From the NCBI RefSeq assembly GCF_009914755.1, contig NC_060934.1: DNA of 64,000 nt. The stretch is one strand, 5' to 3'. Each line of letters starts with the position of its first letter. Positions within the stretch are counted from its first letter, which is position 1. Below are positions 39,173-50,300 of the stretch, in pieces. Below the pieces are notes generated by a model that worked only from the letters and a program-made list of their open reading frames with translations, was not told the origin of the DNA and ran no database searches. The position numbers were made by a program, and so were the translations under genes. Origin of the DNA: the human T2T-CHM13v2.0 reference genome, Homo sapiens.

Positions 39173-41570
39173 GGCGTTCCAAGATGGCCAAATAGGAACA
39201 GCTCTGGTCTGCAGCTCCCAGCATGATCAATGTAGAAGACAGGTGATTTCTACATTTCCAACTAAGGTACCTGGTTCATCTCATTGGGACCGGTTGGACA
39301 GTGGGTGCAGCCCATGAAGGGCAAGCCGAAGCAGGAGGGCAGGGTGTTGCCTCACCCGGGAAGCACAAGGGTTCGGGGAATTTCCCTTTCCTAGCCAAAG
39401 GAAGCTGTGACAGATTATCTGGAAAAACGGGACACTCCTGCCCAAATACTGTGCTTTTCCCAAGGTCTTGCAACCGGCAGACAAGGTGATTCTCTCCCGT
39501 GCCTGGCTCAGCAGCTCCCATACCCACAAATCCTTGCTCACTGCTAGAGCAGCAGTATGAGATTGAGCTGTGAGATGGCAGCCTAGCTGGGGGAGGGGTG
39601 TCTGCCATTGCTGAGGCTTGAGTAGGTAAAAAAAGTGGCCCAGGAAGCTTGAACTGGGTGGAGCCCACCGCAGCTCAACAAGCCCTACTGCCTCTGGACT
39701 CCACCTCTGCGGGCAGGGCATAGCTGAATAAAAGGCAGCAGACAACTTCTGCAGACTTAAACCTCCCTGTCTGACAGCTCTGAAGAGAGCAGTGATTCTG
39801 TCAGCATGGCATTTGAGCTCTGAGAATGGACAGACTGCCTCCTCAAGTGGGTCTCTGACCGCTGTGTAGCCTAACTGGAAGACACCTCCCAGTAGGGGTT
39901 GACTGACACTTTGTATAGGCAGCTGCCCCTCTGGGACGAAACATCCAGAGGAAGGATCAGGCAGCAATATTTGCTGTTCTGCAATATTTGCTGTTCTGCA
40001 GCTTCTGCTGGTGATACCCAGGCAAACAGGTCTGGAGTGGAACTCCAGCAAATGCCAACAGACTTGCAGCTGAGGGACCTGACTGTTAGAAGGAAAACTA
40101 ACAAACAGAAAGGAATAGCATCAACATCAACAAAAAGGACATCCACACCAAAACCCCATCTGTAGGTCACCATCATCAAAGACCAAAAGTAGATAAAACC
40201 ACAAAGATGGGGAGAAACCAGAGCTGAAAAGCTGAAAATTGTAAAAATCAGAGCACCTCTTCTCCTCCAAAGGATCACAGCTCCTCACCAGCAATGGAAC
40301 AAAGCTAGATGGGAAATGACTTTGATGAGTTGACAGAAGTAGGCTTCAGAAGGTCGGTAATAACAAACTTCTCCGAGCTAAAGGAGGATGTTAGAACCCA
40401 TTGCAAAGAAGCTAAAAACCTTGAAAAAAGATTAGGTGAATGGCTAACTAGAATAAACAACGTAGAGAAGACCTTAAATGACCTGACGGAGCTAAAAGCC
40501 ATGGAACAAGAACTTCGTGATGCACGCACAGGCTTCAATAGCCAATTCGATCAAGTGGAAGAAAGGGTATCAGTGACTGAAGATCAAATTAATGAGATAA
40601 AGTGAGAAGAGAAATTTAGAGACAAAAGAGTAAAAAGAAATGAAAGAAGGCTCCAACAAATATGGGACTATGTGAAAAGACCAAATCTACGTTTGATTGG
40701 TGTACTGGAAAGTGATGGGGAGAATGGAAACAAGTTGGAAAACACTCTTCAGGATATTATCCAGGAGAACTTCCCCAACCTAGCAAGGCAGGCCAACATT
40801 CAAATTCAGGAAATACAGAGAACGCCACAAAGATGCTCCTCAAGAAGAGCAACCCCAAAACACATAATTGTCAGATTCACCAAGTTTGAAATGAAGGAAA
40901 AGGTGTTAAGGGCAGCCAAAGAGAAAGGTGAAGTTACCCACAAAGGGAAGCCCATCAGACTAAAAGCAGATCTCTCAGCAGAAACCCTACAAGCCAGAAG
41001 AGAATGGGGGCCAATATTCAACATTCTTAAAGAAAAGAATTTTCAACACAGAATTTCATATCCAGCCAAACTAAGCCTCGTAAGTGAAGGAGAAATAAAA
41101 TCCTTTACAGAGAACCAAATGCTCAGAGATTTTGTCACCACCAGGCCTGCCTTACAAGAGCTCCTGAAGGAAGCACTCAACATGGAAAGAAACAATCAGT
41201 ACCAGCCACTGCAAAAACAAGCCAAATTGTAAAGGCTATCGATGCTATGAAGAAACTGCATCAATTAACAGGCAAAATAACCAGCAAACATCATAATGAC
41301 AGGATAAAATTCACACATAACAATATTAACCTTAAATGTAAATGGGGTAAATGTCCCGATTAAAAGACACAGATGGGCTAATTGGATAAAGAGTCAAGAT
41401 CCAGCAGTGTGCCGTATTCAGGAGACCCATTTCACGTGCAAAGACTCACATAGGCTCAAAATAAAGAGATGGAGGAAGATCTACTAAGCAAATTGAAAGC
41501 AAAAAAAAAAAAAAAAAGTGGGGGTTGCAATCCTAGTCTCTGATAAACAGACTTTCTTTTTTTTTTTTTT

Positions 41571-41667
41571 AAACAATTATTCATTTTTGTTTAAGACATC
41601 AGGAGTACTAATAAAGAACCAACTGGTAAACTGCTGATAATTCCATATAATATATCTAGCACTACAA
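41571..41667 (-). other. ~97-bp unique sequence between the inner TSD and the outer poly(A): candidate 3' transduction
   Basis: Non-L1 sequence lying between two A-tails. Confidence 0.8.
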
Positions 41668-41894
41668 CTACACTGAATCATTTTTTTTTTATATACTTTA
41701 AGTTTTAGGGTACATGTGCACATTGTGCAGGTTAGTTACATATGTATACATGTGCCATGCTGGTGCGCTGCACCCACTAACTCGTCATCTAGCATTAGGT
41801 ATATCTCCCAATGCTATCCCTCCCCCCTCCCCCCACCCCACCACAGTCCCCAGAGTGTGATATTCCCCTTCCTGTGTCCATGTGATCTCATTGT

Positions 41895-46802: not shown

Positions 46803-47193
46803 CTTTGTGGTTTTGTCTACTTTTGGTCTTTGATGATGGTGATGTACAGATGGGTTTTCGGTGTGGATGTCCTTTCTGTTTGTTAGTTTTCCTTCTAACA
46901 GACAGGACCCTCAGCTGCAGGTCTGTTGGAATACCCTGCCGTGTGAGGTGTCAGTGTGCCCCTGCTGGGTGGTGCCTCCCAGTTAGGCTGCTCGGGGGTC
47001 AGGGGTCAGGGATCCACTTGAGGAGGCAGTCTGCCCGTTCTCAGATCTCCAGCTGCGTGCTGGGAGAAGCATTGCTCTCTTCAAAGCTCAGATGGAAATG
47101 CAGAAATCACCCGTCTTCTGCGTGGCTCACGCTGGGAGCTGTAGACCGGAGCTGTTCCTATTCGGCCATCTTAGCTCCTCCCCCTACACTGAA

Positions 47194-47387
47194 TCATTTA
47201 TTTTGAGCCAGGGCTTGAAGCAGACAATCCAAGCATCCTTCTAAACTATCCTCGGTCTTGTCAACAGCTGTTATCTTCAGCTTCTTCAAGGTATCACTGA
47301 GATTATCCATGTTGCTCCCCGAGGGTGAGGAACCGGCGGGGCGAGGCGAAGGTCTGTGGTGCGGGCGGCGCAGCTCTGTGTCCTCCC
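47194..47387 (-). pseudogene. RAP1GDS1: Processed 5' fragment of RAP1GDS1 (SmgGDS): 77 nt of GC-rich 5'UTR plus codons 1-37, then K and stop
   Basis: ATG at 47310 translates MDNLSDTLKKLKITAVDKTEDSLEGCLDCLLQALAQN, which I recognise as the SmgGDS N-terminus. The UTR retains many CpGs. Confidence 0.9.
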
Positions 47388-50300
47388 TAAAACAGACTTT
47401 CAACCAACAAAGATCAAAAGAGACAAAGAAGGCCATTACATAATGGTAAAGGGATCAATTCAACAAGAAGAGCTAACTATCCTGAATATATACGCACCCA
47501 ATACAGGAGCACACAGATTCATAAAGCAAGTCCATAGAGACCTACAAAGAGATTTATATTCCCAGTCAATAATAATGGGAGACTTTAACATCCCACTGTC
47601 AATATTAGACAGATCAATGAGACAGAAGTTTAACAAGGATATCCATGACCTGAACTCAGCTCTGCAACAAGCAGATCTAATAGACATCTACGGAACTCTC
47701 CAACCCAAATCAACAGAATACACATTCTTCTCATCCCCACATCACATTTATTCTAAAATTTACCACATAATTGGAAATAAAACACTCCTCAGCAAATGTA
47801 AAAGAACAGAAATCACAACAGACTGTCTGTCAGACCACAGTGCAATCAAATTAGAACTCAGGATTAAGATACTCACTCAAAACCACATAACTACATGAAA
47901 ACTGAACAACTTGCTCCTGAATGACTACTGGGTAAATAATGAAATGAAGGTAGAAATAAAGATGTTCCTTGAAAGCAATGAGAACGAAGACACAACATCC
48001 CAGAATCTCTGGGACACATTTAAAGCAGTGTGTAGAGGGAAATTTATAGCACTAAATGCCCACAAGAGAAAGCAGGAAAGATCTAAAATCGACACCCTAA
48101 CATCACAATTAAAACAGCCAGAGTAGCAAGAGCAAACAAATTCAAAGGCTAGCAGAAGGCAAGAAATAACTAAGATCAGAGCAGAACTGAAAGGGACAGA
48201 GACACAAAAAACCCTTTAAAAAATCAATGAATCTAGGAGCTGTTTTTTTGAAAAGATCCACAAATAGACCACTAGAAAAACTAATAAAGAAGAAAAGAAA
48301 GAAGAATCAAACTGATGCAATAAAAAGTGATAAAGGGGATATCACCACCAATCCCACAGAAATACAGACTACCATCAGAGAATACTATAAACACCTCTAA
48401 GCAAATAAACTAGAAAATCTAGAAGAAAGGGATAAATTCCTGGACACATACACCCTCCCAAGACTAAACCAGGAAGAAGTTGAATCTCTGAATAGACCAA
48501 TAACAGACTCTGAAATTGAGGCAATAATTAATAGCTTACCAACCAAAAAAAGTCCAGGACCAGATGGATTCACAGCCAAATTCTACCAGAGGTACAAAGA
48601 GGAGCTGGTACGATTCCTTCTGAAACTATTCCAATCAATAGAAAAAGAGAGAATCCTCCCTAACTCATTTTATGAGGCCAACATCATCCTGATACCAAAG
48701 TCTGGCAGAGACACAACAACAAAAAAGAGAATTTTAGACCAATATCCTTGATGAACATCGATGTGAAAATCCTCAATAAAATACTCGCAAACCAAATCCA
48801 GCAGCACATGAAAAAGCTTATCCACCATGATCAAGTCGGCTTCATCCCTGGGATGCAAGGCTGGTTCAACATATGCAAATCAATAAACATAATCCATCGC
48901 GTAAACAGAACCAATGACAAAAACCACATGGTTATTTCAATAGATGCAGAAAAGGCCTTTGACAAAATTCAATAGCCCTTCATGCTAAAAACTCTCAATA
49001 AACTCGTTATTGATGGAACGTATCTCAAAAGAATGAGAGCTATTTATGACAAACCCACAGCCAATATCATACTGAGGGGGCCAAAACTGGAAGCATTCCC
49101 TTTGAAAACTGGCACAAGACAGGGATGCCCTCTCTAACCATTCCTATTCAATATAGTGTTGGAAGTTCTGGCCAGGGAAGTCAGGCAAGAGAAAGAAAGA
49201 AAGGGTATTCAATTAGGAAATGAGGAGGTCAAATTGTCCCTGTTTGCAGAAGACATGATTGTATATTAGGAAACCCCATCATCTCAGCCCAAAATCTCCT
49301 TAAGCTGATAAGCAACTTCAGCAAAGTCTCAGGACACAAAATCAATGTGCAGAAATCACAAGCATTCCTATACACAATTAACAGACAAACAGAGAGCCAA
49401 ATCATGAGTGAACTCCCATTCACAATTGCTACAAAGAGAATAAAATACCTAAGAATCAAACTTACAAGGGATGTGAAGGACCTCTTCAAAGTGAACTACA
49501 AATCACTGCTCAAGGAAACAAAAGAGGACACAAACAAATGGAAGAATATGCCATGCTCATGGATAGGAAGAATCAATATTGTGAAAATGGCCACACTGCC
49601 CAAGGTAATTTATAGATTCAATGCCATCCCCATCAAGCTACCAATGACTTTCTTCACAGAATTGGAAAAAACTGCTTTAAAGTTCATATGGAACCGAAAA
49701 AGATCCCTCATTGCCAAGACAATCCTAAGCAAAAAGAACAAAGCTGGAGGCATCACACTACCTGACTTCAAACTTTACTATAAGGCTACAGTAACCAAAA
49801 CAGCATGGTACGGGTACCAAAACAGATATATAGATCAATAGAAGAGAACAGAGTCCTCAGAAATAATACCACACATCCACAACCATCTGATCTTTAACAA
49901 ACCTGACAAAAACAAGCAATGGGGAAAGGATACCCAATTTAATAAATGGTGCTGGGAAAACTAGCTAGTCATATGTAGAAAGCTGAAACTGGATCCCTTC
50001 CTTACAATTTATACAAAAATTAATTCAAGATGGATTAAAGACTTAAATGTTAGACCTAAAACCATAAAAACCCTGGAAGAAAACCTAGACAATACCTTTC
50101 AGGACATAGGCATGGGGAAGGACTTCATGACTAAAACACCAAAAGCAATGGCAACAAAAGCCAAAATAGACAAATGGGATCTAATTAAACTAAAGAGCTG
50201 CACAGCAAAAGAAACTACCATCAGAGTGCACAGGCAACCTACAGAATGGTGGAAAATTTTTGCAATCTACCCCTCTAACAAAGGGCTAATATCCAGAATC

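What the first reader, a model, noticed from the sequence alone, without database searches (positions are those of the whole stretch)
41544..47401. RAP1GDS1-L1 chimeric retroposon with nested TSDs: 5' and 3' transduction in one host-promoter-driven RNA
Seen, minus strand 5'->3': outer TSD; RAP1GDS1 5'UTR and codons 1-37 (47387-47199); inner repeat AATGATTCAGTGTAG; L1PA2; A10; second inner repeat; 97 nt unique; A14; outer TSD. Recalled: RAP1GDS1 has exon junctions just after ATG-G and near c.112, and homology stops here at c.112, so this looks like spliced exons 1 and 2 joined to a cryptic acceptor. Inference: a source L1 in RAP1GDS1 intron 2, in sense orientation, was exonised into the host transcript. 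It was then retrotransposed complete with its original TSD pair, the host's first exons and its 3' flank. That is exon shuffling by promoter capture, comparable to the MAST2 exon capture of SVA_F1 but for an autonomous L1. Alternative: a short RAP1GDS1 retrocopy inserted first and an L1 later landed in it, which needs a hit within ~15 nt of the exon end. Spliced L1 5' transductions have been described before, so novelty of this locus needs a literature check.
Basis: partly seen in the sequence, partly recalled or inferred. Interest (0 to 1): 0.92.

Follow-up and report, generated by a model that had tools for sequence, protein, structure and literature searches.

The report
Published RAP1GDS1-L1 chimeric retrotransposon copy
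This is a real jumping-gene copy that carried the first two spliced exons of the RAP1GDS1 gene and a piece of its intron from chromosome 4 to chromosome 10, and this exact locus and mechanism were already published in 2025-2026.

Summary
On the minus strand lie: a 12-nt target-site duplication (TSD), RAP1GDS1 exon 1 (82 nt) and exon 2 (108 nt) precisely spliced, 15 nt of intron, a 5.5-kb L1, an A-run, the same 15 nt again, 97 nt of unique flank, A14, and the TSD again.

The 97-mer and the 15-mer flank a full-length sense L1 in RAP1GDS1 on chr4. A pyrimidine tract and an AG sit directly before the 15-mer. Sibling copies exist on chr1 (one event, three duplicated copies) and on chr2.

It is a spliced element of type SpIRE97/622, which explains its dependence on the host promoter.

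The locus, the chr4 source, the cryptic acceptor, the chr1 copies and supporting long RNA reads are all in Law et al., Cell Genomics 2026 (bioRxiv 2025). Larson et al. 2018 listed the copy as SpIRE(97/622)-79.

I did not find in those texts the 3' transductions (98, 104 and 190 nt) or a third, 5'-truncated offspring on chr2. Verdict: real, correctly read, already known.

The parts
47390..47401 (-). Outer 5' target-site duplication GAAAGTCTGTTT. It is preceded by TT, giving a TT/GAAA endonuclease-type site.
   Evidence: D18. The same TSD is listed in Law et al. Table S5.
47389..47389 (-). One T that matches neither the target nor RAP1GDS1 (untemplated 5' nucleotide).
   Evidence: Table S5 lists 'T' as untemplated.
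47307..47388 (-). RAP1GDS1 exon 1 tail: 82 nt of 5'UTR plus ATGG.
   Evidence: chr4:101576443-101576528, 98%. One search shows ATGG followed by a GTAAG donor.
47199..47306 (-). RAP1GDS1 exon 2, complete (108 nt, ends at c.112), joined to exon 1 without the intron.
   Evidence: chr4:101608361-101608469, 99%. One search shows a CAG acceptor before and a GTAAG donor after.
47184..47198 (-). 15 nt of RAP1GDS1 intron 2 (AATGATTCAGTGTAG). This is the 5' TSD of the source L1 and the stretch between the cryptic acceptor and the L1. It holds the TGA that closes the 38-codon RAP1GDS1 frame.
   Evidence: (D4).
41691..47183 (-). L1 body, about 5.49 kb, called L1PA2 by both papers. It carries the SpIRE97/622 deletion of the 5'UTR.
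   Evidence: Subfamily label.
47086..47087 (-). SpIRE splice junction CATCTGAG|CTTTGAAG. About 524 nt of the L1 5'UTR promoter are absent.
   Evidence: In one search, 24 of the 26 near-full-length matches outside the window's own place start at query 96. In one search, the two sides lie 522 nt apart in 2 of 2 ordinary L1s.
45786..46802 (-). ORF1 frame (338 codons), interrupted by one in-frame stop at codon 130.
41895..45722 (-). ORF2, open over all 1275 codons.
41668..41690 (-). L1 A-run (A10) running into the second copy of the inner 15-mer (41682-41668), which is the 3' TSD of the source L1.
   Evidence: (D4).
41571..41667 (-). 3' transduction: 97 nt (98 with an ambiguous A) of RAP1GDS1 intron 2 lying directly 3' of the source L1.
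   Evidence: (chr4:101640892-101641004, 99%).
41557..41570 (-). A14 tail of the retrotransposed RNA.
41545..41556 (-). Outer 3' target-site duplication GAAAGTCTGTTT.
   Evidence: D18.
41150..41544 (+). Target context: an older L1 ORF2 fragment (about 85% identical to the chr4 L1) in the opposite orientation. It continues at 47402-47800.
   Evidence: The flanks align to L013 positions 3607-3210 and 4007-3597, overlapping by 11 nt.

Best explanation
The element is one retrotransposition product of a single chimeric RNA made at the RAP1GDS1 locus on chr4.

An L1 sits in sense orientation in RAP1GDS1 intron 2. It had itself arrived as a spliced copy lacking about 524 nt of its internal promoter (type SpIRE97/622).

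Transcription from the RAP1GDS1 promoter produced a pre-mRNA in which exon 1 was spliced to exon 2. Exon 2 was then spliced to a latent acceptor (TTCTCTTTTCAG|) 15 nt upstream of the L1.

The RNA ran through the L1's own A-rich end and was polyadenylated 97-98 nt further on in the intron.

L1-encoded proteins, from this RNA or in trans, then inserted it by target-primed reverse transcription into an older L1 on chr10. That made a 12-nt TSD at a TT/GAAA site.

Shown here: the anatomy, the source locus, the acceptor, the exon junctions, the deletion, and independent siblings. Inferred: that the host promoter was required, and which proteins did the work. The copy carries no promoter of either kind. 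Today it has an interrupted ORF1, so it is a fossil.
For: 1. The window anatomy and exact TSDs are confirmed.

2. Exons 1 and 2 map to chr4 with canonical donors and acceptors, and the introns are removed in the copy.

3. The source L1 has the same 15-mer on both sides, and an AG plus pyrimidine tract immediately 5' of it. Its 3' flank is collinear with the 97-mer.

4. The SpIRE junction is present in 5 of 5 full-length family members, including the source. It is absent from ordinary L1s.

5. There is a second, independent event on chr1. Its three copies share one flank, so they are a duplication of one insertion. It has the identical exon2-15mer-L1 junction but begins 14 nt further 5' in exon 1, ends 6 nt further 3' and has another TSD.

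6. A third event on chr2 is tied to chr4 by a 190-nt 3' transduction.

7. Law et al. report the same reading. They found three nanopore RNA reads joining upstream RAP1GDS1 exons to the intronic L1, two from brain and one from testis (section read in full).

8. Larson et al. state that the 97/622 deletion strongly impairs L1 promoter function, and they anticipated rescue by a cellular promoter (passages).
Against: None of the evidence contradicts the model, but several points stay open.

- The content of the chr10 copy is a strict subset of the content of the chr1 copy. Descent from chr1 rather than directly from chr4 is therefore not formally excluded.
- Site patterns give only weak help: 4 derived sites are shared by chr10 and the source, against 1 shared by chr10 and all three chr1 copies. 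Parallel patterns occur at 1-3 sites.
- The L1 body has no family-specific substitution: 0 sites set all five members apart from six other L1s. Kinship therefore rests on the flanks and the deletion.
- Intron 2 placement relative to exon 3 was taken from the paper and not tested here.
- The different 5' ends could be alternative start sites or incomplete reverse transcription.
Confidence: 0.95

Rival explanations
1. Two-step origin: a short RAP1GDS1 processed retrocopy inserted on chr10 first, and an unrelated L1 later landed about 15 nt from its end.
For: None found.
Against: - The 15-mer and the 97-mer are chr4 intron sequence flanking an L1 there, not RAP1GDS1 mRNA.
- The same junction recurs in an independent chr1 insertion.
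- There is only one outer TSD pair and one terminal A-tail.
- No L1-less RAP1GDS1 exon1-exon2 retrocopy exists in this assembly. One search gave 6 of 6 candidates scored, all being the chimeras or the chr4 exons.
Confidence: 0.01
2. Template switching in trans: during reverse transcription of an L1 RNA, the enzyme jumped onto a separate RAP1GDS1 mRNA, as in U6/L1 chimeras. The chimeric RNA would then not have been made by cis-splicing.
For: Template switching is a known route to L1 chimeras (abstract and passages of Law et al.).
Against: - The junction is not L1-to-mRNA. It passes through 15 nt of the source's own intronic flank, starting exactly after an AG acceptor.
- It ends exactly at the exon 2 donor.
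- It is identical in two independent events.
- RNA reads with this splice are reported.
Confidence: 0.02
3. Secondary jump: the chr10 copy was copied from the chr1 chimeric daughter, not directly from chr4. This would need transcription starting inside the transduced CpG-rich 5'UTR piece.
For: The chr10 insert begins 14 nt downstream of the chr1 insert's start and ends 6 nt upstream of its end. All its content is therefore present in the chr1 copy.
Against: - Changes shared by all three chr1 copies are absent from chr10, which there agrees with chr4. Examples lie in the exon 1 piece and in the 3' transduced flank.
- Derived sites shared by chr10 and the source number 4, against 1 shared by chr10 and the chr1 copies.
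- The daughter has no known promoter.
- The numbers are small and homoplasy occurs at 1-3 sites.
Confidence: 0.04

Closest known systems
RAP1GDS1/L1PA2 chimeric insertions of Law et al., 'Comparative genomics reveals LINE-1 recombination with diverse RNAs' (Cell Genomics 2026, PMC13174262; bioRxiv 10.1101/2025.02.02.635956)
   Same: It is the same locus. Table S5 lists hg38 chr10:44482819-44488319(-) with TSD GAAAGTCTGTTT, exons 1-2 of ENST00000508490 and the 15 nt at chr4:98320417-98320431. The source L1PA2 in intron 2, the acceptor 15 bp upstream, the SpIRE deletion and the three duplicated chr1 copies are all described.
   Different: The 3' transduction, the nested inner TSD pair and the chr2 5'-truncated sibling do not appear in what I read. 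That was section 14 in full, passages of the discussion, all 8 occurrences of 'transduction', and parts 1 and 2 of the 3 parts of Table S5. The figures and the PDF supplements were not visible to me.
SpIRE97/622 (spliced integrated retrotransposed elements), Larson et al., PLoS Biol 2018, PMC5860796
   Same: The junction CATCTGAG|CTTTGAAG is identical. The copy is listed as SpIRE(97/622)-79, the source as -35 (RAP1GDS1, same orientation) and a chr1 copy as -6 (SRGAP2B).
   Different: Their table scores all three as 'No' transduction. It takes the inner repeat as the TSD (16, 12 and 14 nt), so it treats the three as separate entries. Here the splice happened once, in the ancestor of the chr4 element, and the other two inherited it.
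SVA_F1 family carrying MAST2 exon 1 (recalled from memory; no call)
   Same: A host first exon is spliced onto a retrotransposon RNA, and the chimera is then propagated.
   Different: SVA is non-autonomous, and the MAST2 chimera founded a large subfamily. Here an L1 with its own ORFs made only two fixed chimeric daughters, neither of which carries a promoter.
L1 3' transduction (Goodier 2000 and Pickeral 2000, seen only as entries in Larson's reference list; content recalled)
   Same: Read-through of the L1 poly(A) signal and use of a downstream site. The result is a unique 3' tag followed by a second A-tail.
   Different: Here it is combined with a spliced 5' transduction in the same RNA, so both TSD copies of the source are carried along.
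U6/L1 and other template-switch chimeras
   Same: A foreign RNA sequence is fused 5' of L1 within one TSD pair.
   Different: Those junctions arise by template switching at variable L1 positions. Here the junction is a splice site pair in cis.

Membership tests
L1 insertion by target-primed reverse transcription | Perfect target-site duplication flanking the whole insert, and a rebuilt uninterrupted empty site | tested here: met
   The 12-nt exact pair is shown (D18). The flanks align to adjacent, 11-nt overlapping parts of one older L1.
L1 insertion by target-primed reverse transcription | Terminal poly(A) tail and an endonuclease-type cleavage site (TT/AAAA-like) | tested here: met
   A14 lies at 41570-41557. 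The site reads TT/GAAA and is the same in Table S5.
Spliced 5' transduction (host exons on an L1) | The 5' extra sequence maps to host exons joined at their annotated splice sites, and continues into the genomic flank of a source L1 | tested here: met
   Exon 1 ends ATGG|GT, exon 2 is bounded CAG|...|GT, and then the sequence resumes after an AG 15 nt before the chr4 L1.
L1 3' transduction | Unique sequence between the L1 A-run and a second A-tail that maps directly 3' of a candidate source L1 | tested here: met
   The match is 99% over 113 nt to chr4, and the alignment is collinear through L013 position 7506.
SpIRE97/622 | L1 5'UTR position about 97 joined to about 622, with the intervening part missing | tested here: met
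   The junction is shown. L1 nt 1-97 and nt 98 onward lie 522 nt apart in 2 of 2 ordinary L1s. The copy is listed as SpIRE(97/622)-79.
L1PA2 subfamily | Subfamily-diagnostic positions (RepeatMasker or Dfam assignment) | not tested
   No repeat library was available. The label comes from Law et al. and Larson et al.. The body is about 98% identical to many other L1s.
Retrotransposition-competent L1 | Both ORFs open and a functional promoter | tested here: not met
   ORF1 has an in-frame stop at codon 130 and the 5'UTR promoter part is missing. ORF2 is open. All 5 full-length family members have at least one interrupted ORF.

The most novel reading that the evidence does not exclude
The RAP1GDS1 SpIRE may have relied on the host at both ends of its RNA: the host promoter and splicing at the 5' end, and downstream intronic poly(A) sites at the 3' end.

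All three fixed, independent offspring carry 3' transductions ending at different points (98, 104 and 190 nt).

One of them is a roughly 140-nt 5'-truncated L1 tail with its own 15-nt TSD at CHM13 chr2:233045837-233046247. I did not find it in either paper. A search for the 5' chimera cannot find it.

The germline output of this 'dead on arrival' element would then be at least three events. The three SpIRE entries of 2018 (-35, -6, -79) would record one splicing event, not three.
Probability: 0.5. Interest if true: 0.3.

Novelty: already known. Interest (0 to 1): 0.25.

Why it matters
The locus shows that a promoter-less L1 can be rescued by a host gene's promoter and splice sites. It also shows that such an L1 can move coding exons to new chromosomes, which is a route to exon shuffling and to new L1 5' ends. 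That point has been made in print for this very locus.

This check adds three things. It confirms the structure independently in a telomere-to-telomere assembly. It identifies the 3' tag, which enlarges the family by one offspring. It corrects how three catalogued SpIREs relate to one another.

Tried and rejected
**Weakened L1 poly(A) signal as the cause of the 3-of-3 read-through.** At the L1 end, 0 of 6 family copies have AATAAA. However, only 3 of 6 comparison L1s have it, and the family copies are not independent. I count this as no real support.

**Ordering the chr10 and chr1 events from substitutions.** The evidence conflicts. Polarised private changes are chr10 51, source 31 and chr1q32 15, plus 2 on the shared chr1 branch. 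Yet 4 derived sites are shared by chr10 and the source, and 0 by the source and chr1 alone. Homoplasy runs at 1-3 sites, so the order is unresolved.

**Dating.**
- At 0.17% per Myr (the rate in Law et al.'s Methods), chr10's 51 changes in about 5,620 sites give about 5 Myr.
- The same rate gives under 2 Myr for the chr1q32 copy.
- That is younger than the SRGAP2 duplications that copied it. Their dates of about 3.4 and 2.4 Myr are recalled, not from a call.
- The three duplicated copies differ widely in private changes: 15, 39 and 27.
- Only 'a few million years' can be said.

**Family-specific L1 substitutions.** None were found (0 sites).

**Steps that could not be run or gave nothing.** The earlier-findings tool was not open. 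No ape genome was available, so the orthologue test could not be run.

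
Full report
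**Observation**

- an exact 12-nt direct repeat GAAAGTCTGTTT at 47401-47390 and 41556-41545 (D18);
- one unmatched T at 47389;
- 82 nt ending in ATGG at 47388-47307;
- 108 nt at 47306-47199;
- the 15-mer AATGATTCAGTGTAG at 47198-47184;
- an L1 starting GGGGAGGAGC at 47183;
- an A10 run at 41690-41681;
- the 15-mer again at 41682-41668 (D4);
- 97 nt of non-repeat sequence at 41667-41571;
- A14 at 41570-41557;
- the outer repeat again.

The ATG at 47310 opens a 38-codon frame that ends at a TGA inside the 15-mer.

The two outer flanks align to adjacent parts of one older L1 of opposite orientation and overlap by 11 nt. The empty site therefore rebuilds cleanly.

**Source locus**

The window's own assembly could be searched. 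The 113 nt made of the inner repeat plus the 97-mer hit six places (6 of 6 candidates scored):
- the window itself;
- chr4:101640892-101641004 (+);
- three places on chr1;
- one place on chr2.

The 218 nt at the 5' end also hit six places (6 of 6 scored):
- the window itself;
- the same three chr1 loci;
- two separate chr4 pieces, 101576443-101576528 and 101608361-101608469.

On chr4 the first piece ends ATGG|GTAAG. The second is bounded by ...AAGCAG| and |GTAAG. These are exon 1 and exon 2 of RAP1GDS1 with their introns removed in the window copy.

About 26.9 kb downstream of exon 2 lies an L1 in the same orientation. Its 5' flank reads ...GTGATTCTCTTTTCAG|AATGATTCAGTGTAG|GGGGGAGGAGCC. Its 3' end reads A-run, GATTCAGTGTAG, then the 97-mer and onward.

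The window copy aligns collinearly to this locus over 5,632 columns at 98.1%.

The L1 is 5.49 kb long and its ORF1 starts only 381 nt after its first base. The junction CATCTGAG|CTTTGAAG lies at 47087|47086.

In a genome search with the L1 body, 24 of the 26 near-full-length matches outside the window's own place begin at query position 96. Two run through the junction (only 27 of 16,978 candidates were scored).

In 2 of 2 ordinary L1s that I fetched, the two sides of the junction lie 522 nt apart.

All 5 full-length family members, the chr4 source included, have this junction. This is the SpIRE97/622 deletion of the L1 internal promoter.

**Siblings**

- **chr1.** The three chr1 copies share the same flank on both sides, so they are one insertion that was later duplicated. 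That event starts 14 nt further 5' in exon 1, ends 6 nt further 3' (104 nt of 3' flank) and has a different TSD. Its exon2-15mer-L1 junction is identical.
- **chr2.** The chr2 copy lies at CHM13 chr2:233045837-233046247. It is a 5'-truncated L1 tail of about 140 nt followed by an A-run, the inner repeat, 190 nt of chr4 3' flank, an interrupted A-tail and its own 15-nt TSD AAAATGCAGAAACTA. The next 201 nt of chr4 flank hit only chr4 and this chr2 copy (2 of 2 scored).

The source thus left at least three independent fixed offspring. All three have 3' transductions that end at different points.

**State of the copies**

- In the window copy ORF2 is open over 1275 codons. ORF1 has one in-frame stop at codon 130.
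- The chr4 source and the three chr1 copies each have interrupted ORFs.
- Pairwise substitutions over about 5,620 aligned sites are 99 for chr10 against the source, 66 for chr1q32 against the source, and 62-84 among the chr1 copies.
- With six other L1s as reference, 0 sites set the family apart. Kinship therefore rests on the flanks and the deletion.
- The order of events and the absolute ages could not be settled (see Tried and rejected).

**Mechanism**

The best reading has these steps:
1. The host promoter starts transcription.
2. Exon 1 is spliced to exon 2, and exon 2 to the latent acceptor 15 nt before the promoter-less L1.
3. The RNA reads through the L1 end and is polyadenylated in the intron.
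4. The RNA is inserted by target-primed reverse transcription at a TT/GAAA site.

The alternatives fare as follows:
- A two-step origin is excluded by the chr4 flanks and by the recurrence of the junction.
- Template switching is very unlikely, because both sides of each junction are splice sites in cis.
- Descent of chr10 from the chr1 daughter is not formally excluded, but the few informative sites do not favour it.

**Literature**

A full-text search for RAP1GDS1, transduction and LINE-1 gave 7 papers, one of them relevant. A second search with RAP1GDS1, L1PA2, retrotransposition and SpIRE listed no other paper holding RAP1GDS1 among its 20 rows.

*Law et al. [quoted passage not shown] The paper describes:
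- this chr10 insertion with the same TSD and the same 15 nt;
- the chr1 insertion and its three copies, citing the SRGAP2 duplication paper;
- the source L1PA2 in intron 2;
- the cryptic acceptor 15 bp upstream;
- the SpIRE deletion;
- three nanopore reads with the splice.

*Larson et al. 2018.* I read passages and two supplementary files. They list the window copy as SpIRE(97/622)-79, the source as -35 and a chr1 copy as -6. Each is marked 'No' for transduction, with the inner repeat taken as the TSD. [quoted passage not shown]

In the texts I could see, neither paper mentions the 3' transduction or the chr2 copy. 'Chromosome 2' occurs 0 times in Law's main text. None of the 8 occurrences of 'transduction' refers to a 3' one: they are 5' transductions and one title in the reference list. 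The figures and PDF supplements were not visible, and Figure 6A may show the 3' part.

**Verdict**

The one important addition is the SpIRE deletion. The finding is already known. The remaining increments are the nested 3' tag, a third offspring, and the regrouping of three catalogued SpIREs into one family. They are small.

Noticed in passing
L025 (G000:C10:78963445-78963575) and L028 (G000:C2:43665783-43665913, minus strand): Two L1s fetched only as comparison copies share about 20 nt after their A-runs (…TAAATTCCTTAATTGGC). In the chr2 copy a second A-run follows. In the chr10 copy unique sequence follows. This looks like another short 3'-transduction pair, with chr10:78.96 Mb as the source.
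   Followed up: no
Law et al. Table S5, rows for hg38 chr2:169308224 (MAP3K13), chr15:70729654 and chr2:116331799 (PALLD): The quoted L1 sequences of two further host-exon chimeras also contain the CTGAG|CTTTGAAG SpIRE junction. In the PALLD row the L1 part starts exactly at CTTTGAAG, so the host exon is joined directly to the L1 position-622 acceptor. The 97/622 sites seem to recur among spliced 5' chimeras.
   Followed up: no
G000:C1:205591400-205598200, C1:144089200-144096000, C1:121318200-121325000 (L014-L016): The three duplicated chr1 copies have very unequal numbers of private derived changes (15, 39 and 27 in about 5.6 kb). The two pericentromeric copies have the most. This suggests faster change or gene conversion there.
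   Followed up: partly
L013 7384-7408 compared with window 41668-41690 and with L014-L017: The boundary between the L1 A-run and the inner 3' repeat differs among copies. The source now reads A-run then GATTCAG. chr10 reads A-run then TGATTCAG. chr1q32, chr1p and chr2 read A-run then GAATGATTCAG, and the chr1q21 copy reads GCATGATTCAG. The GAATG form suggests that the source's original TSD was 16-17 nt and included the G, or the AG, of the acceptor.
   Followed up: partly
window 41500-41523 (minus-strand reading): A run of about 19 T interrupts the older L1 just 3' of the insertion site. It accounts for several short spurious blast hits.
   Followed up: no
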